Counted from the stretch's first letter, positions 13,927 to 19,421 are shown. The stretch is 64,000 nt of DNA from an uncultured Gammaproteobacteria bacterium (GCA_963714975.1 CAVQQD010000003.1:782624-846623), one strand, 5' to 3'. A program made the numbers and translations. Notes: generated by a model from the sequence alone, not told the origin.

Positions 13927-16605
13927 ATGTCATCACAAACCAAACTTGAAATCAAACCTCCATCCTCCACGCAACTAATTCAATCGGATGGCGCCGTGTC
14001 AATTTCTTTTAACATTCGCTACAAAGATTTATCTTTTGATAATAGAGACAATCCCTTGGGTGAGGGTGCTTATGGAAAAGTTTATAGAGGGAAATGGGAT
14101 TTTAATACCGTAGCCATTAAGGAATACACTGCACAAGATTTTTCTGAGAAAACTCAAAAAGAAATCCGTACGGAAGCTTCTGTCATGGCACAAGTCAGTA
14201 CTACGTCTGATTATTTGGTGCGTCTCAAAGGTATGAGTTTAGAAAAACCCCATTATTGTTTGGTGATGGAGTATATGGGTGGTGGTGATTTGTACCATTA
14301 TTTGCACAGTAATCAAGATATTTCATGGGAGGCCCGTTATCGTTGGGGTTCGGATATTTGTATTGGCTTGCATCATTTACACAGCAAAGATATTTTGCAT
14401 CGTGATTTAAAAAGCTTAAATGTCCTACTCGATAGTAATGGTCGCGCTAAATTATCAGATTTTGGTATGGCAAAAATTAAAGCCAGCTCTTCGGTTAGTA
14501 CGAAAGGAGGGTTTAAAGGCACCTTGTTATGGGCTGCTCCCGAGCTTTTTAAGCCTCATAGTAAACCCACTAAAGCTGCCGATGTTTACAGTCTTGGCAT
14601 GGTACTTTGGGAATTAGCCAGTAGAGAAATTCCATTTAAGAATGCAGGAAATATGGCGATGGCTTGGATTATGCAAGGCACCCAAGAAGAAGTACCCGCA
14701 GATACTCCCCCTGAATTTAAAACGGTGATTCTCGATTGTTGGCAAGCGCCTGAAAAGCGTCCCGAGGCTAAAGTATTGGCCGGACAGCTCGATCAATTAT
14801 GTCAAACCGCTCAAAAAACTGAATTAAAAGAAACAGTGGCGTCATCGAGTACCAGTCCCAGTTCTTTTGGTAAAAAACTGAATGATCTATTTGCCCCTAT
14901 TCCGCTTATCAGCCAATTGACCCTTAAACCCATTGATATTAAGACAGCTAAGAAAACAGAAGAAAAAGAAATAGCTCACTTTATGGCGCAATCCAGCTTG
15001 ATGACGCATCAATCCTCTGGTACAACACAAGTCTCGACGACTGCTCCTTCTCTACATGCCAGTCAACCGGCGTTTTTTGGCGGAGCCAGTAGCTCTTCTA
15101 GCACTTCAACCAGTGAAGCCAAAACAAAAGTAGTTCCCTTGGATGAAAAAAGTCGCCAACAATTGATGCCGCTACAAAATGAATTAATTCAAGCTTGCGA
15201 AAATGGTAGTTTAGCGAAAGTTAAGGCCGCCATTGGCAAAGGGGCTTTAGTCGATTTACCCAACGAACAAGGTAACAACCCGCTGTATTGTGCCGTGTAT
15301 GGCATGAATCCTGAGGTAGTGAATTATGTCATTGCACAACTTGGTGAAAATGCTCCTGCCAATTCTTGGCAAGCGTGTGAAGAACATAACAAAAAACACT
15401 ATGGACAAACCTATTTAAACATGAAATTTGCGGATGACTTATTGATAAAAATTGAATCCAATGAATTTTTAGCGGAATATCATCTAGTTCAAGCACGAAA
15501 AATGATGAAAGATGAGACCAATAAGCATTGTGAGACTTTTGATGCTTTCAAACAGCGGAAGAATGGGGGACGCCGTATTACGTGGTTGACCGATTATCGA
15601 GATCTCGATGGGCGGGTCACACAGATGACAGAGACAGGGTATGAAGTTTATAGAAATCAAATTAAGCAGGCGATGGAGGGATTACAGGTGGCACAAATTA
15701 GTCAGTTGGTTGGTAAAAAACTGAATGATCCATTTGCCCCTATTCCACCCGTTGATAACAGCCACTTTTACCTCATCGATATTAAGACACCTAAAACAGA
15801 AGAAAAGGAAAGCACCCGCTTTATGACGCAATCCAGTCTGGTGACGCAACAATCCTCTGGTACAACACAAGTCTCGACGACTGCTCCTTCTCTACATGCC
15901 AGTCAACCGGCATTTTTTGGTGGAGGTAGTAGTTCTTCTAGTACTACATCGAGTGAAGACAAAATCAAAGAGGTTCCATCGGATGAAAAGAAGCACCAGC
16001 AATTGATGCCACTACAAAATGAATTAACCACTGCCTGCGAAAATGGCAGCTTAGCGAAAGTTAAGGCCGCCATTGGCAAAGGGGCGTTAGTAGATTTACC
16101 CAATGCCCAAGGTAAAAATCCTCTGTATTGTGCCGTGTATGGCATGAATCCTGAAGTAGTGAACTATGTCATTGCGCAACGAAGTGAAAATGCGCCTGCT
16201 TCTTGGCAAGGTTGTGAAGAGCACAACAAAAAACACTACGGACAAATCTTTTTAAACATGGAATTTGCGCCTGTCTATTACCAAAATTGGCACGATTTAC
16301 TGTTGAAGATTAAATCTAATGATTTTTTGGCAGACTATCATCTTAAACAGGTTCAAAAGTATTGTGATAAGAAAAACGCTGATTGGTACACAAGCTTGGA
16401 GCGATTGATAGAATGGTTGGGGCGGTGGGACCTAGTGTCACCAGGGTATTGGGTGGAGTCGATTCCTAGTTCGTGGGCTGCGGTGCGCAACACTGAGCTA
16501 GGGTACCAGGTTAACAGGAGCCAAATTAAGCAAGCAATTGAGGGGTTACAGGCGGCGCAAACCAATCAGTCAGTGAGTATGACTGGTAGTACGAGTACGA
16601 ATTAG
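13927..16605 (+). CDS. Paralogous Ser/Thr protein kinase with two tandem copies of the ~290-aa C-terminal (linker + ankyrin-like) module
   Basis: The kinase domain is ~85% identical to the 11705 paralog. The block FMAQSSLMTHQSSGTTQVSTTAPSLHASQPAFFGG...LMPLQNEL..ACENGSLAKVKAAIGKGALVDLPN.QG.NPLYCAVYGMNPEVVNYVIAQ occurs twice (~14860-15700 and ~15700-16590). Confidence 0.8.
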   Translation: MSSQTKLEIKPPSSTQLIQSDGAVSISFNIRYKDLSFDNRDNPLGEGAYGKVYRGKWDFNTVAIKEYTAQDFSEKTQKEIRTEASVMAQVSTTSDYLVRLKGMSLEKPHYCLVMEYMGGGDLYHYLHSNQDISWEARYRWGSDICIGLHHLHSKDILHRDLKSLNVLLDSNGRAKLSDFGMAKIKASSSVSTKGGFKGTLLWAAPELFKPHSKPTKAADVYSLGMVLWELASREIPFKNAGNMAMAWIMQGTQEEVPADTPPEFKTVILDCWQAPEKRPEAKVLAGQLDQLCQTAQKTELKETVASSSTSPSSFGKKLNDLFAPIPLISQLTLKPIDIKTAKKTEEKEIAHFMAQSSLMTHQSSGTTQVSTTAPSLHASQPAFFGGASSSSSTSTSEAKTKVVPLDEKSRQQLMPLQNELIQACENGSLAKVKAAIGKGALVDLPNEQGNNPLYCAVYGMNPEVVNYVIAQLGENAPANSWQACEEHNKKHYGQTYLNMKFADDLLIKIESNEFLAEYHLVQARKMMKDETNKHCETFDAFKQRKNGGRRITWLTDYRDLDGRVTQMTETGYEVYRNQIKQAMEGLQVAQISQLVGKKLNDPFAPIPPVDNSHFYLIDIKTPKTEEKESTRFMTQSSLVTQQSSGTTQVSTTAPSLHASQPAFFGGGSSSSSTTSSEDKIKEVPSDEKKHQQLMPLQNELTTACENGSLAKVKAAIGKGALVDLPNAQGKNPLYCAVYGMNPEVVNYVIAQRSENAPASWQGCEEHNKKHYGQIFLNMEFAPVYYQNWHDLLLKIKSNDFLADYHLKQVQKYCDKKNADWYTSLERLIEWLGRWDLVSPGYWVESIPSSWAAVRNTELGYQVNRSQIKQAIEGLQAAQTNQSVSMTGSTSTN

Positions 16606-16928
16606 CCGACGAGGTTTGAGCTCGAAAATATGCTTTTTACTCGGTTGAGCAGAGTTTTAACCGGCCGTAGTAATTCTTGTTGGACTAACACTACGGTACT
16701 ACTCAAGCCCACCAGCGTATTCAAATCTCGAATAAAATCTTGTGCCGAAGCGGTGTCTACGCGTTCCGGGTGATGTACATAAAACCCCAAGGCCGCTTCG
16801 AAGAAATGGGTGAGGGCACGTAATTCACGATGGGTCCAAGGCGTGTCGAGTCGTCTCATTTTTAACCCTCCAGAAAATAATGGGGGGCTGCGGCGGACAA
16901 TACTAAATCGTCGATCATCTGCCGGCAT
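16602..16928 (-). CDS. Hypothetical small protein, last gene of the HK-RR operon; the real start is probably the internal Met (MRRLDTPW...)
   Basis: It lies on the same strand as the upstream receiver gene and overlaps it by 67 nt. Its stop codon overlaps the convergent kinase gene's stop. No domain is recognised. Confidence 0.35.
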   Translation of the reverse strand: MPADDRRFSIVRRSPPLFSGGLKMRRLDTPWTHRELRALTHFFEAALGFYVHHPERVDTASAQDFIRDLNTLVGLSSTVVLVQQELLRPVKTLLNRVKSIFSSSNLVG

Positions 16929-17257
16929 AATTCTTTCGTCAGGGGCTTCAGTAAAAATCCCTTGACACCTAACTCATAGGCTTGCACTTTTTGCTGCACA
17001 TCTTCGTGGGTGGTGACGATGACTATCGGTGTCTTACTATTGGGCCCTTTGCTTTGCCGCAAGTGGCGCGCGATTTCAAGACCACTTAAGTCCGACAGAT
17101 TCAAGTTTACCACCACTAATCGATAGGCTTGATGCAGCTTTTCTAAAGCGGCTAGTCCGCTACTGACTACGTTGACGCAGCAATGCAAGCTTTCAAAAAA
17201 TCGGCGGGTGGTGTAGGCAATCATCGGATTCGGTTCAATGAGTAATACATTTTTCAT
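16862..17257 (-). CDS. Stand-alone response-regulator receiver (CheY-like) protein
   Basis: The 131-aa protein has the receiver architecture (LLIEPNP..., DLSGLEIARHLR, K in GFLLKP). Its ATG overlaps the HK stop in an ATGA arrangement (17254-17257), which indicates translational coupling. Confidence 0.8.
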   Translation of the reverse strand: MKNVLLIEPNPMIAYTTRRFFESLHCCVNVVSSGLAALEKLHQAYRLVVVNLNLSDLSGLEIARHLRQSKGPNSKTPIVIVTTHEDVQQKVQAYELGVKGFLLKPLTKELCRQMIDDLVLSAAAPHYFLEG

Positions 17258-18651: not shown

Positions 18652-18664
18652 CGAAGGGGCTCCT

Positions 18665-19421
18665 CTAGGTTAGCTTGGATTCAACGGGAGGTAAGGAGAT
18701 AAAGCGCTGCGGCTTGAACTGCTTGCGCTGCTTAAATTTAATCGCGATCGGGTGTAATAAATTCGGATAGCGCGGAAGCAGAAATTGTTGATGGGTATAA
18801 GTCATCGCCGCATTGCGTGGGCTCGGGTAGACCTCATAATGACACTGCAATTCCGGCCATAAACACAGCGCGGTGCATTCTTCCAGGACATAATCGCGAC
18901 ATAATTCTTGAGCACGGGCGTAGTTAAATTGTTTCAGCATTTCCGGGGATAAACGTTGGGTGTAGCGCTGTAAAAAAGTGCTAATTGTTAGCTTGATAGC
19001 GTGTTGGTAAGTCGAGTATTGGCTCACTAAATAATTGACGCGTCGAAAGGTGGCTGAATAACGCGGATGAGTTAACCAATAATCCCACCGGACTATTTTA
19101 GGCTGTGGTAACTGTTCATAAACAATTTGATTGCCGCGTAGTTGCTACAAAATCCTCAGCTCGAAGCGTGGGATGCAGTAACGCTAAGGTGTGGCGCTGC
19201 AGGGTATCATCAATTAGCAAAGTGCACCGTGCAAACTGCTGGCGCACTAAAGCCACAGTGGCCGCAAAGGGTTCTCCTTCGTGCACTTCTTGGCCGACGC
19301 TAATCGTCAGCAAACAATGCGCCTGATCAAACGGGATGGGCGCGTGAGTTGCGTCGTATTTGAAAGCGGGTTTGATTTTATGATTCACTGGCGCGTTCCT
19401 GGGTGGATGCGAAAAAAGCAT
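18665..19421 (-). pseudogene. Cyclodipeptide synthase (CDPS, AlbC-like) homolog split by a single frameshift; the two ORF-track pieces are 19116..19421 and 18665..19027
   Basis: The N-terminal piece has AHCLLTISVGQE...QQFARCTLLIDD, aligning with the AlbC HALIGISAGNS...QRFERTDVVYVD block that contains the catalytic Ser. The C-terminal piece has DYVLEE ... CHY, aligning with AlbC NYVLAE ... CYH (catalytic Tyr/Glu/Tyr). The reading frame continues uninterrupted upstream of the second piece and overlaps the first piece's end around 19105-19145. Confidence 0.5.

What the first reader, a model, noticed from the sequence alone, without database searches (positions are those of the whole stretch)
16602..19421. 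Cyclodipeptide synthase homolog abutting a PQ-loop/PAS histidine kinase, a receiver and a small protein
The two ORFs 19116..19421 and 18665..19027 together reconstruct an AlbC-like CDPS. The N-terminal block HCLLTISVGQE...QQFARCTLLIDD aligns with AlbC HALIGISAGNS...QRFERTDVVYVD. The C-terminal block DYVLEE...CHY aligns with AlbC NYVLAE...CYH. A single +1 frameshift near 19105-19145 interrupts them. The CDPS stop is 14 nt from the start of a sensor kinase whose N-terminus is a 3-TM PQ-loop (SemiSWEET-like) domain. The kinase is translationally coupled (ATGA overlap) to a receiver-only regulator and a small unknown protein. A cyclodipeptide synthase co-transcribed with a dedicated two-component sensor would suggest a self-produced diketopiperazine signal with a cognate receptor. 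That is not an established architecture. The frameshift means the synthase may be inactive, or it may be a sequencing error.
Basis: partly seen in the sequence, partly recalled or inferred. Interest (0 to 1): 0.75.

Follow-up and report, generated by a model that had tools for sequence, protein, structure and literature searches.

The report
Broken cyclodipeptide synthase–sensor kinase cassette
A gene for an enzyme that makes cyclic dipeptides sits directly in front of a membrane sensor kinase, a pairing (sometimes a single fused protein) found in every related bacterium examined, which suggests an uncharacterised signal-and-receptor system; the synthase gene in this window is dead.

Summary
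The two ORFs at 19421-18665 (minus strand) are one cyclodipeptide synthase (CDPS) of the XYP subfamily. The joined ORF matches solved CDPSs (5OCD, E=5e-49), although the Pfam and NCBIfam CDPS models miss this clade.

The lesion is not a one-base frameshift. It is a ~26-nt deletion at ~19133-19137 that removes an invariant G-x-x-W-L-x-R segment, so the gene is a pseudogene.

The downstream kinase is intact. Its N-terminus is a true SemiSWEET/PQ-loop homologue, followed by PAS, HisKA and HATPase_c. The receiver has Asn51 in place of the phospho-acceptor Asp, as its paralogues also lack Asp. The small ORF is the front part of a 145-aa gene split by a duplicated Ser/Thr-kinase unit.

The pairing is conserved. 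Kinase-family sequence adjoined the CDPS in 27 of 27 informative loci despite unrelated flanks. At least 12 protein clusters are CDPS-PAS-kinase fusions.

Paralogues lie on a second large contig, probably of the same genome: three intact synthases, one truncated.

Best reading: a decayed, listening-only copy of a cyclodipeptide synthase/receptor cassette. No ligand binding or signalling was tested. Only one 2018 paper hints at the association.

The parts
19116..19421 (-). CDPS pseudogene, N-terminal fragment. Likely true start is GTG 19388. Carries the catalytic Ser41 in TISVGQE and the DDTLQRHT motif. Ends at a premature TGA at 19118-19116.
19133..19137 (-). Deletion junction. About 26 nt are missing relative to paralogues: P0001 has TT-QQAGAAWLAR-NQIVYEQ, while the window has only CGGC between ACG (Thr) and AAT (Asn). 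The deletion removes the invariant G..W..R segment and shifts the frame.
18665..19132 (-). CDPS pseudogene, C-terminal part in the +1 frame. Retains Tyr and Glu of DYVLEE and the XYP-type Tyr-Pro of EVYPS.
18367..18651 (-). Kinase residues 1-95: a three-helix SemiSWEET/PQ-loop membrane domain with the ALFINALLFIPQ motif.
   Evidence: Pfam PQ-loop scores 21.3 bits here and 29-32 bits (cut-off 22) in homologues. A profile of 12 such domains matches solved SemiSWEETs 9KAX, 4X5M and 4RNG at E~1e-7. The AlphaFold2 model has three TM helices.
17977..18366 (-). Kinase residues 96-225: cytoplasmic PAS domain. It is 95-98% identical among four paralogues.
   Evidence: Pfam PAS_4 E=1.7e-11. AlphaFold2 model, with best Foldseek PDB matches to the PAS domain of VqmA bound to DPO, E~2e-10. 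Paralogue comparison.
17254..17976 (-). Kinase residues 226-465: HisKA (H-box SHDLRTP) and HATPase_c. The ORF is intact.
16862..17257 (-). Receiver-only protein (131 aa) with Asn51 at the phospho-acceptor position and Glu8-Pro9 in place of the acidic pair: an aspartate-less receiver.
   Evidence: Pfam Response_reg E=3e-20. Alignment with CheY and 11 homologues that all have Asp. Four paralogues have Asn or Thr at the same position.
16602..16859 (-). 5' part of a fourth gene. Residues 1-73 (16859-16641) are 90% identical to the 145-aa paralogue P0139; the ORF then runs into unrelated sequence.
13683..13739 (-). Displaced 3' end of the same fourth gene (residues 128-145 of P0139 plus the stop codon).
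   Evidence: tblastn 83% identity over 18 aa, E=3e-5; sequence read
13753..16642 (+). Second copy of a tandemly duplicated Ser/Thr-kinase unit (gene 13927-16605, with ankyrin repeats) that separates the two pieces of the fourth gene.
   Evidence: the repeat finder: 11525-13688 versus 13753-16642, 74-96% identity; Pfam

Best explanation
This is one decayed copy of a four-gene cassette: CDPS, then SemiSWEET-PAS histidine kinase, then receiver, then a 145-aa protein.

In intact cassettes the proposed mechanism is as follows.
1. The synthase takes two aminoacyl-tRNAs and makes a plain, untailored cyclodipeptide in the cytoplasm.
2. The cytoplasmic PAS domain of the adjacent kinase binds it and sets kinase activity.
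3. The three-helix SemiSWEET-like domain lets the cyclodipeptide cross the membrane. Kinases are dimers, so two such domains would pair into a six-helix pore. The intracellular level would then report what the population has accumulated.
4. Output goes through the receiver, or through receiver-Hpt domains in hybrid versions.

In this window the synthase is inactivated by a ~26-nt deletion and the fourth gene is split, but the kinase is intact. The copy can therefore only listen to cyclodipeptide made by paralogous cassettes.

In this lineage the receiver has lost its phospho-acceptor Asp, so it must act without canonical phosphorylation.

Shown here: gene identities, the lesion, the conserved linkage, the fusions and the paralogues. 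Inferred: the ligand-receptor relation, the transport role and the output.
For: - Identity of the CDPS: E=5e-49 to 5OCD, with catalytic residues kept.
- Deletion of an invariant segment plus a frame shift.
- Linkage: 22 of 22 informative genome loci from Legionellales, Coxiellaceae, other Gammaproteobacteria and a Burkholderiales MAG have kinase-family sequence next to the CDPS, and 21 of them have the PAS domain. Five further metagenome contexts show the same, with unrelated flanks: conjugation genes, ABC transporters, rnpA-yidC-mnmE.
- Fusions: L011 is a 933-aa CDPS-PAS-kinase ORF. Twelve of the top 150 family representatives are 583-1069 aa. Eleven of these were scanned with Pfam, and all 11 are CDPS-PAS-HisKA-HATPase_c(-REC). 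All 12 retain the catalytic residues.
- The SemiSWEET domain behaves as a separable module. It is fused to the kinase in 11 loci and the window, is a separate ~95-aa gene or match upstream of the CDPS in 5, and was not detected in 6.
- No tailoring enzymes were seen in any context listed with Pfam annotation.
- The PAS model is structurally closest to the VqmA PAS that binds the pyrazinol autoinducer DPO.
- The kinase is intact and has three intact paralogues at least 90% identical.
Against: - No binding, transport or signalling was tested.
- The PAS domain is of the common ArcB/BarA type. The VqmA hit is only 1-2 orders of magnitude better than other PAS structures.
- The output is unknown. 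The receiver has no effector domain and here lacks the Asp.
- The SemiSWEET domain was not detected in several loci, so it is not essential.
- The HMMER alignment places a hydrophobic residue and a Tyr where the aligned SemiSWEET has Trp and Asn. From my recollection these are sugar-pocket residues, so no substrate can be inferred.
- PAS domains are nearly identical among paralogues while synthases differ by 9-14%, which gives no sign of matched diversification.
- That the 866-kb and 1.24-Mb contigs belong to one genome is an assumption.
Confidence: 0.55

Rival explanations
1. The kinase senses something other than the cyclodipeptide, such as redox state, oxygen or a host or metabolic cue, through its PAS domain. 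It controls production or activity of the synthase. The cyclodipeptide is then an end product (toxin, host-directed molecule, chelator), not the kinase's ligand.
For: The PAS-kinase core resembles ArcB/BarA/TorS-type sensors. A related PAS hybrid kinase also follows the NRPS in the same window, which could mean 'regulator of a biosynthetic gene'. Regulators are commonly encoded next to the genes they control.
Against: Recurrent covalent fusion of an active-looking synthase to the sensor side of the kinase is not needed for transcriptional control. The receivers have no DNA-binding domain. A transporter-type domain travels with the pair. The pair is conserved as a self-contained unit in unrelated flanks.
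Confidence: 0.22
2. The synthase acts as an input module reporting the charging state of particular tRNAs. The cyclodipeptide is a purely intracellular second messenger read in cis by the PAS kinase. The SemiSWEET domain removes it to reset the signal.
For: In fusions the CDPS sits where sensor domains sit, N-terminal to or between PAS domains (P0193 and P0272 are PAS-CDPS-PAS-kinase). In several loci no membrane domain was detected in the kinase region (L004, L016, L018). CDPS substrates are aminoacyl-tRNAs (established knowledge of the family; PMC5816076).
Against: No evidence on kinetics or on tRNA-charging dependence. Membrane-anchored versions with a transporter-like domain are the majority. 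Small cyclodipeptides may cross membranes in any case (my assumption, not tested).
Confidence: 0.13
3. The interruption of the CDPS is a sequencing or assembly artefact, and the gene in the organism is intact.
For: The catalytic residues in both halves are unchanged, and the rest of the ORF is 86-90% identical to intact paralogues, so the lesion is recent. With five near-identical paralogues, misassembly is conceivable.
Against: The defect is ~26 nt, not a homopolymer slip. It removes 8 whole alignment columns present in 119 of 119 homologues. The same cassette carries a second independent lesion, the split fourth gene. Other paralogues are also decayed: P0038, P0126 and P0288 are truncated.
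Confidence: 0.07
4. The adjacency of the CDPS and the kinase is coincidental.
For: None beyond the general frequency of two-component genes in bacterial genomes.
Against: 27 of 27 informative loci show it, and at least 12 fusion clusters exist.
Confidence: 0.01

Closest known systems
XYP-subfamily cyclodipeptide synthases with solved structures: Fdum-CDPS (5OCD, Fluoribacter dumoffii, two Gly-tRNA substrates) and Nbra-CDPS (5MLQ, Glu + Ala). Names and substrates are from the review PMC12945691.
   Same: Clear sequence homology over the whole domain (E=5e-49 and 4e-30). Same catalytic Ser, Tyr and Glu, and the X-Y-P signature.
   Different: This copy is interrupted by a ~26-nt deletion. The clade falls below the Pfam and NCBIfam CDPS thresholds. 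Its product is unknown. Pocket residues were not mapped here. No published CDPS work that I found discusses the kinase linkage.
Autoinducer synthase / sensor kinase cassettes: Vibrio CqsA-CqsS and Legionella LqsA-LqsR-LqsS (alpha-hydroxyketone signalling). Comparison from my own knowledge.
   Same: The signal-synthase gene is adjacent to a membrane sensor histidine kinase, with a receiver-type protein alongside. Both occur in Legionellales.
   Different: The synthase is a tRNA-dependent CDPS rather than a PLP-dependent acyltransferase. The receptor has a SemiSWEET-like three-helix domain plus a cytoplasmic PAS domain instead of the six-helix CqsS/LqsS sensor. Synthase-kinase fusions exist here. 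No signalling was demonstrated.
VqmA-DPO quorum sensing in Vibrio cholerae (PDB 6UGL, 6KJU, 6IDE)
   Same: A cytoplasmic PAS domain binds a small nitrogen-heterocycle autoinducer. DPO is a pyrazinol, which from my knowledge resembles a diketopiperazine ring. It is the best structural match of the modelled PAS (E~2e-10, ~21% identity).
   Different: VqmA is a PAS-DNA-binding transcription factor, not a kinase. To my knowledge its signal is derived from threonine and alanine and its synthesis gene is not linked to vqmA. The structural similarity is only slightly better than to other PAS domains.
Bacterial SemiSWEET sugar uniporters (4X5M, 4RNG, 4QNC, 9KAX)
   Same: A three-helix PQ-loop domain matched over its full length by a profile of this family (E 8e-8 to 5e-3). 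It occurs as a free ~95-aa protein in some loci, like SemiSWEETs.
   Different: Here it is usually fused to the N-terminus of a histidine kinase. I found no literature on such a fusion. In the HMMER alignment, what I recall as the sugar-binding Trp and Asn positions hold a hydrophobic residue and an invariant Tyr. Transport was not tested.
Aspartate-less receiver domains. These are phosphorylation-independent receivers; I recall FrzS, HP1043 and ChxR as examples, from my own knowledge.
   Same: Receiver fold with the phospho-acceptor Asp replaced (Asn51 here; Asn or Thr in paralogues), and conserved as such.
   Different: Stand-alone receiver with no output domain, encoded directly after an apparently active kinase. 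Orthologous receivers in other lineages keep the Asp.

Membership tests
Cyclodipeptide synthase (CDPS), XYP subfamily | Sequence homology to experimentally characterised or solved CDPSs across the catalytic domain | tested here: met
   phmmer versus PDB: 5OCD E=5e-49, 9I5M and 5MLQ E~4e-30, covering residues 13-235
Cyclodipeptide synthase (CDPS), XYP subfamily | Catalytic Ser (AlbC Ser37), Tyr178, Glu182, and Tyr-Pro at 202-203 (the XYP signature) | tested here: met
   Ser41, Tyr and Glu of DYVLEE, and Tyr-Pro of EVYPS are present. The same columns are 117-119 of 119 conserved in homologues. Correspondence to AlbC numbering rests on motif alignment and my recollection of the AlbC sequence.
Cyclodipeptide synthase (CDPS), XYP subfamily | Curated family profile hit (Pfam PF16715, NCBIfam TIGR04539) | tested here: not met
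   The halves and the joined ORF give no hit. The intact paralogue P0001 scores 21.2 bits against a cut-off of 45. Since 5OCD-type XYP enzymes are accepted CDPSs, I read this as limited model coverage.
Cyclodipeptide synthase (CDPS), XYP subfamily | Uninterrupted ORF able to give an active enzyme | tested here: not met
   ~26-nt deletion, premature stop at 19118-19116, and loss of the invariant G..W..R segment
Cyclodipeptide synthase (CDPS), XYP subfamily | Produces a cyclodipeptide from aminoacyl-tRNAs | not testable with these tools
   Needs expression of an intact paralogue and LC-MS
Two-component sensor histidine kinase (HisKA type) | HisKA dimerisation/phospho-acceptor domain with H-box, plus HATPase_c | tested here: met
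   Pfam HisKA E=1.9e-11 and HATPase_c E=7.9e-26. SHDLRTP, DSGIGI and GKGLGL are visible in the sequence.
SemiSWEET / PQ-loop (MtN3) family | Three-helix bundle with a PQ motif in helix 1, and profile homology to SemiSWEETs | tested here: met
   Invariant P26-Q27. Pfam PQ-loop scores 29-32 bits in homologues against a cut-off of 22, and 21.3 bits in the window. The profile matches 8 solved SemiSWEET sequences, best E=7.6e-8. AlphaFold2 gives three TM helices.
SemiSWEET / PQ-loop (MtN3) family | Sugar-binding Trp/Asn pair and transport activity | tested here: inconclusive
   In the HMMER alignment the Trp and Asn of 9KAX face a hydrophobic residue and the invariant Tyr71. The assignment of those residues as the sugar pocket is from memory. 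Transport is not testable here.
Response regulator receiver (canonical, phosphorylatable) | Receiver fold | tested here: met
   Pfam Response_reg E=3.2e-20
Response regulator receiver (canonical, phosphorylatable) | Phospho-acceptor Asp (CheY Asp57) and acidic pair (Asp12/Asp13) | tested here: not met
   Asn51 and Glu8-Pro9. All 11 homologues from other loci and CheY have Asp. Paralogues have Asn or Thr.
Autoinducer synthase / cognate sensor kinase cassette (quorum-sensing type) | Synthase and sensor genes genetically linked across taxa | tested here: met
   27 of 27 loci; at least 12 fusion clusters
Autoinducer synthase / cognate sensor kinase cassette (quorum-sensing type) | The product accumulates extracellularly and is the ligand of the linked sensor | not testable with these tools
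   Requires biochemistry and genetics
Hpt phosphotransfer domain (considered for the small ORF) | Similarity to Hpt domains of the hybrid homologues | tested here: not met
   An HMM built from 4 Hpt regions of homologous hybrid kinases scores -1 bit against the small ORF, and BLASTP finds nothing. Pfam gives no hit.

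The most novel reading that the evidence does not exclude
Cyclodipeptide synthases of this clade are dedicated signal generators hard-wired to their own receptor. The receptor is a PAS histidine kinase whose SemiSWEET-like domain acts as a combined channel and sensor. 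In the fused forms a single protein turns aminoacyl-tRNA into a cyclodipeptide messenger and reads it. That would be the first genetically defined cyclodipeptide synthase-receptor pair, and the first transporter-fold SemiSWEET input domain on a kinase. Genomes such as this one would carry several parallel cassettes, some reduced to listeners.
Probability: 0.35. Interest if true: 0.9.

Novelty: new variant of a known kind. Interest (0 to 1): 0.72.

Why it matters
**An open question becomes testable.** From my own knowledge, whether cyclodipeptides (diketopiperazines) are true bacterial signals has been argued since the late 1990s, because no dedicated synthase-receptor pair was known. Reported effects went through LuxR-type proteins at high concentrations. 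A CDPS that is always encoded next to, or fused with, one particular PAS kinase is the genetic signature such a pair should have. It makes the question directly testable. Legionella maceachernii ATCC 35300 is a named strain that carries an intact cassette (L007).

**A role for Gram-negative CDPSs.** It would give a biological role to the many CDPSs that lack tailoring enzymes.

**A new kinase input domain.** It would add a SemiSWEET-fold input domain to the repertoire of sensor kinases.

**An annotation blind spot.** The curated CDPS profile models miss this whole clade, so the proteins are labelled hypothetical and the fusions are invisible in domain-architecture databases.

**For this genome.** The result shows a recently expanded family of about five cassettes in different states of decay, in what looks like an amoeba-associated bacterium.

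Tried and rejected
1. Pfam and NCBIfam scans of the two halves and of the joined ORF gave no CDPS hit. I treat this as a false negative of the models, given.
2. The small ORF as a split-off Hpt domain was tested with an HMM of Hpt regions from hybrid homologues and with BLASTP. There is no similarity, so I rejected it.
3. Searches for the full-length paralogue of the small protein (P0139) in Pfam, NCBIfam and PDB sequences found nothing. Its AlphaFold2 model has pLDDT 53, too poor for a fold search.
4. I tried to fetch the DNA of the closest paralogues (P0001, P0038) to define the deletion at nucleotide level. They are not retrievable, so the size (~26 nt) is inferred from the protein alignment plus the window DNA.
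5. The promoter/terminator scan of 16300-20500 found nothing above the shuffled expectation.
6. NRPS as a conserved partner of the cassette: it is not found next to CDPS loci elsewhere.
7. Reading the receiver's Asp-to-Asn change as random decay was rejected, because four paralogues also lack the Asp.
8. Literature searches for CDPS with histidine kinase or two-component systems, PQ-loop or SemiSWEET with histidine kinase, and CDPS with PAS and quorum sensing found only the one-sentence remark in PMC5767969.
9. Predicting the product from P1/P2 pocket motifs (PMC5816076, Table 2) was not attempted. I could not align this clade to AlbC numbering reliably.

Full report
**1. What is in the sequence**

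On the minus strand, 19421-16602 holds four tightly packed reading frames.
- Two ORFs, 19421..19116 and 19027..18665. The frame of the second is open from about 19141.
- A 465-aa ORF, 18651..17254.
- A 131-aa ORF, 17257..16862.
- A small ORF ending at 16602.

The gap between the second ORF's stop and the 465-aa ORF's ATG is 13 nt and contains AGGAG. The 465-aa and 131-aa ORFs overlap by ATGA. An ATG at 16859 lies 2 nt after the 131-aa ORF's stop.

**2. The synthase**

The curated profile libraries do not recognise either half or the joined ORF (Pfam; NCBIfam). Direct comparison with the sequences of solved structures is unambiguous. The joined ORF matches chain 5OCD_A at E=5e-49 over residues 13-232, and 9I5M and 5MLQ at about 4e-30. 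All are deposited as cyclodipeptide synthases.

According to the review PMC12945691, 5OCD is the Fluoribacter dumoffii enzyme, which uses two Gly-tRNAs. 5MLQ is the Nocardia brasiliensis enzyme, which uses Glu and Ala. Both belong to the XYP subfamily.

The window sequence has the catalytic Ser (Ser41 in TISVGQE), the Tyr and Glu of DYVLEE, and the Tyr-Pro of EVYPS. In an alignment with 119 homologues these columns are 117-119 of 119 conserved.

Even the intact paralogue P0001 reaches only 21.2 bits against NCBIfam TIGR04539 (cut-off 45) and gives no Pfam hit. The whole clade therefore sits in a blind spot of the curated models. Most database members are called hypothetical proteins.

**3. The lesion**

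The closest database protein, P0001 (250 aa, intact), is about 87-90% identical, depending on the alignment. It reads ...FVATT-QQAGAAWLAR-NQIVYEQ....

The window reads ...GTA GCA ACT ACG | CGGC | AAT CAA ATT GTT.... Only 4 nt stand where P0001 has 30. This is a net loss of about 26 nt, which is 8 codons plus 2 nt. It explains both the frame change and the 8 empty alignment columns.

Those columns hold G in 119 of 119 homologues, W in 119 of 119, L in 113 of 119 and R in 118 of 119. The G, W and R remain almost invariant in relatives only about 33% identical. The first frame ends at a TGA at 19118-19116.

This is a genuine pseudogene lesion, not a one-base slip. The exact nucleotide boundaries could not be fixed because the DNA of the paralogues could not be retrieved.

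**4. The kinase**

Pfam finds PAS_4 (residues 112-220), HisKA (233-298) and HATPase_c (344-459). It also gives a borderline PQ-loop hit (11-46; 21.3 bits against a cut-off of 22).

The borderline hit is real.
- Homologous N-terminal domains score 29.4-31.7 bits.
- The ALFINALLFIPQ motif is nearly invariant.
- A profile of twelve such domains matches eight solved bacterial SemiSWEET sequences over the whole three-helix length. The best are 9KAX at 7.6e-8, 4X5M at 1.3e-7 and 4RNG at 2.1e-7.
- An AlphaFold2 model of residues 1-229 (mean pLDDT 79) shows three membrane helices, a linker helix and a PAS fold.

In Foldseek against the PDB, the six best matches are all the PAS domain of Vibrio cholerae VqmA, four of them explicitly ligand-bound (6KJU, 6UGL, 6IDE; E about 2e-10 to 2e-9). 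Other PAS domains follow within one to two orders of magnitude. This is a lead, not proof.

**5. The receiver**

The fold is clear (Response_reg, E=3e-20). However, alignment with CheY and eleven receivers from related loci puts Asn51 where all the others have the phospho-acceptor Asp. It also puts Glu8-Pro9 where they have the acidic pair.

Four paralogues carry Asn, Asn, Thr and Thr at that position. The receiver in L025, whose CDPS is among the closest outside this genome, has Asp. The loss is therefore a conserved feature of this lineage, an aspartate-less receiver, and not part of the recent decay.

**6. The small ORF**

It has no counterpart in the loci from other genomes. A 145-aa paralogue, P0139, exists.
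- Residues 1-73 of P0139 match window 16859..16641 at 90%.
- Residues 128-145 match 13739..13686 at 83% (E=3e-5).

Between the two pieces lies the second copy of a tandemly duplicated Ser/Thr-kinase unit: 11525-13688 versus 13753-16642, at 74-96% identity. The gene has been split, and residues 74-127 are lost.

Its function is unknown. There is no Pfam, NCBIfam or PDB hit, the AlphaFold2 model is unreliable, and it is not an Hpt domain.

**7. Is the pairing more than chance?**

A scan of one genome per bacterial species returned 24 loci with a relative of the synthase. Two are cut at the contig end.
- All 22 others have kinase-family sequence directly beside the synthase. It is usually immediately downstream on the same strand. 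It is divergent in L002, L007 (Legionella maceachernii) and L008. In L001 it is reduced to a remnant.
- Five further contexts from metagenomes show the same arrangement.

The flanking genes differ every time: conjugation genes, peptide ABC transporter, rnpA-yidC-mnmE, transposase. The pair travels as a unit. A receiver follows, or is fused as a hybrid kinase, in about two thirds of loci. Four hybrids also carry Hpt.

The SemiSWEET domain varies in placement.
- It is fused to the kinase in 11 loci and in the window.
- It is a separate ~95-aa gene (or, in L011, only a short match) upstream of the synthase in L011, L012, L013, L017 and L022.
- It was not detected in six loci (L001, L002, L004, L008, L016, L018). 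In three of these (L004, L016, L018) an apparently complete PAS-kinase follows the synthase.

**8. Fusions**

In L011 the synthase, PAS and kinase form one 933-aa ORF.

An exhaustive phmmer search with P0001 against 1.84 billion representatives found 931 relatives at E no greater than 1e-3. Twelve of the best 150 are 583-1069 aa long, and one of them (P0141) appears to be the L011 protein. Eleven of the twelve were scanned with Pfam, and all eleven are CDPS-PAS-HisKA-HATPase_c, with or without a receiver. Two of them have PAS-CDPS-PAS-kinase order. All twelve keep the catalytic Ser, Tyr, Glu and Tyr.

Recurrent fusion is strong evidence for a direct functional link between the enzyme and the sensor.

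**9. Paralogues**

The window's kinase and receiver are on record from an 866,452-bp contig. A 1,240,461-bp contig from the same sources carries the following.
- Three intact synthases (P0001, P0121, P0122; 86-91% identical to each other and to the window's copy) and a truncated one (P0038).
- Three intact 465-aa kinases at least 90% identical to the window's, and a truncated one (P0126).
- Four receivers, one of them truncated.
- The 145-aa protein P0139.

If the two contigs belong to one genome, there are about five cassettes, two of them decayed. I could not verify that they do.

Among the kinase paralogues the PAS domain is the most conserved part (95-98%). The membrane domain is the most variable (85-93%), and its changes cluster at residues 64-76.

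**10. Mechanism**

The most economical reading is a signal synthase with its receptor.
- The CDPS makes an untailored cyclodipeptide. No tailoring enzymes were seen in the contexts listed with annotation.
- The PAS domain senses the cyclodipeptide.
- The SemiSWEET-like module moves it across the membrane.

This module is separable, sometimes free-standing, and would be dimeric on a dimeric kinase, as SemiSWEETs are.

The window's copy has a dead synthase but an intact kinase, so it could only respond to cyclodipeptide made elsewhere.

The main rival is that the kinase senses another cue and controls the synthase. The fusions and the transporter-type domain argue against it but do not exclude it. 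A more unusual reading is that the synthase is an input module reporting tRNA charging through an intracellular messenger. This fits the domain order in the fusions and the soluble variants. Nothing here tests ligand binding, transport or output.

**11. What is known**

Full-text searches found no description of a CDPS-kinase cassette or fusion, nor of a PQ-loop/SemiSWEET-kinase fusion.

Skinnider et al. 2018 (PMC5767969) reported that PAS domains are among the most frequent non-biosynthetic domains in CDPS clusters, and suggested that such products may be quorum-sensing metabolites. That is the only precedent I found. Gondry et al. 2018 (PMC5816076) characterise Legionella XYP enzymes but do not mention the neighbourhood.

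The nearest functional analogues are CqsA-CqsS and LqsA-LqsS (a synthase next to a sensor kinase) and VqmA-DPO (a PAS receptor for a small heterocycle).

**12. Verdict**

The architecture is real, conserved and essentially uncharacterised, but this particular copy is a decaying one.
- I rate it a new variant of a known kind of system (a synthase-sensor kinase signalling cassette). The interest lies mainly at the family level.

Noticed in passing
window 20367-31530 (+): A 3006-aa NRPS with the domain order formyltransferase-A-T-C-A-T-TE, i.e. two modules, so plausibly a formylated dipeptide. Its 3' end overlaps by 23 nt a 721-aa hybrid PAS-HisKA-HATPase-REC kinase. That kinase's PAS and kinase core are 33% identical to the CDPS-linked kinase and share the MPxxxYWxDxxxxYLGCN motif. 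This is a second 'dipeptide-making enzyme plus PAS kinase' pair, divergent from the CDPS cassette across a ~950-bp gap. The NRPS is not found beside CDPS loci in other genomes.
   Followed up: partly
window 11525-16642 (+): Tandem duplication of a eukaryote-like Ser/Thr protein kinase unit (genes 11705-13522 and 13927-16605). The second copy has ankyrin repeats and an internal ~840-bp duplication (14953-15252 versus 15793-16092, 86%). The duplication split the fourth gene of the cassette.
   Followed up: partly
window 10538-11407 (+): An integrase gene (Phage_int_SAM_2 / Integrase_1) lies just upstream of the kinase duplication. The cassette region may sit in a mobile island. Related cassettes lie next to a transposase (L025) or conjugation genes (the context of P0013).
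   Followed up: no
window 4778-6790, 3426-4184, 31862-32938, 35682-39041: Eukaryote-like repeat and domain proteins: WD40 (670 aa), Sel1, macro domain, and ankyrin (1119 aa). This looks typical of an amoeba-associated intracellular bacterium, which fits the Legionellales/Coxiellaceae affiliation of the related loci. The organism was not identified.
   Followed up: no
window 6001-10000: GC content is 52-55% against ~40-45% in the rest of the window. The two ORFs there (7246-8007 and 7988-9736, minus strand) have no Pfam hit. The region may be foreign DNA.
   Followed up: no
L022 8001-9893; protein P0140: Two CDPS genes lie in tandem (253 and 278 aa) ahead of one PAS-kinase-REC in L022. P0140 (460 aa) matches the CDPS query in two stretches, possibly a double CDPS. 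This hints at heterodimeric or two-product systems.
   Followed up: no
proteins P0066 and P0125 (Candidatus Endohaliclona renieramycinifaciens): This sponge symbiont with a reduced genome carries several near-identical copies of a CDPS of the same clade (four to five accessions). Its gene neighbourhood was not examined.
   Followed up: no
kinase residues 64-76 (window ~18460-18422) versus paralogues P0290-P0292: Differences among the four kinase paralogues cluster at the start of the third membrane helix (DWW/DSL/DEL, GYS/GYA/GYI/GYT, F/L), next to the invariant Gly-Tyr. In the HMMER alignment that Gly-Tyr faces what I recall as the SemiSWEET substrate-pocket Asn. The PAS domain is almost unchanged. 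This might mean the membrane domain, not PAS, sets specificity.
   Followed up: no
L028 3580-5571; L029: A 214-aa SemiSWEET-PAS protein without a kinase domain follows a separate PAS-kinase. No CDPS is visible on these short contigs; the contig ends 44 nt after the gene. This is either an exception to the linkage or a cassette cut by the contig end.
   Followed up: partly
L025 3676-5061: In L025, whose CDPS is among the closest outside the paralogue family (63% identical), the kinase is called as three separate fragments (109, 163 and 138 aa). This is either decay there too or sequencing errors in that metagenome assembly.
   Followed up: no
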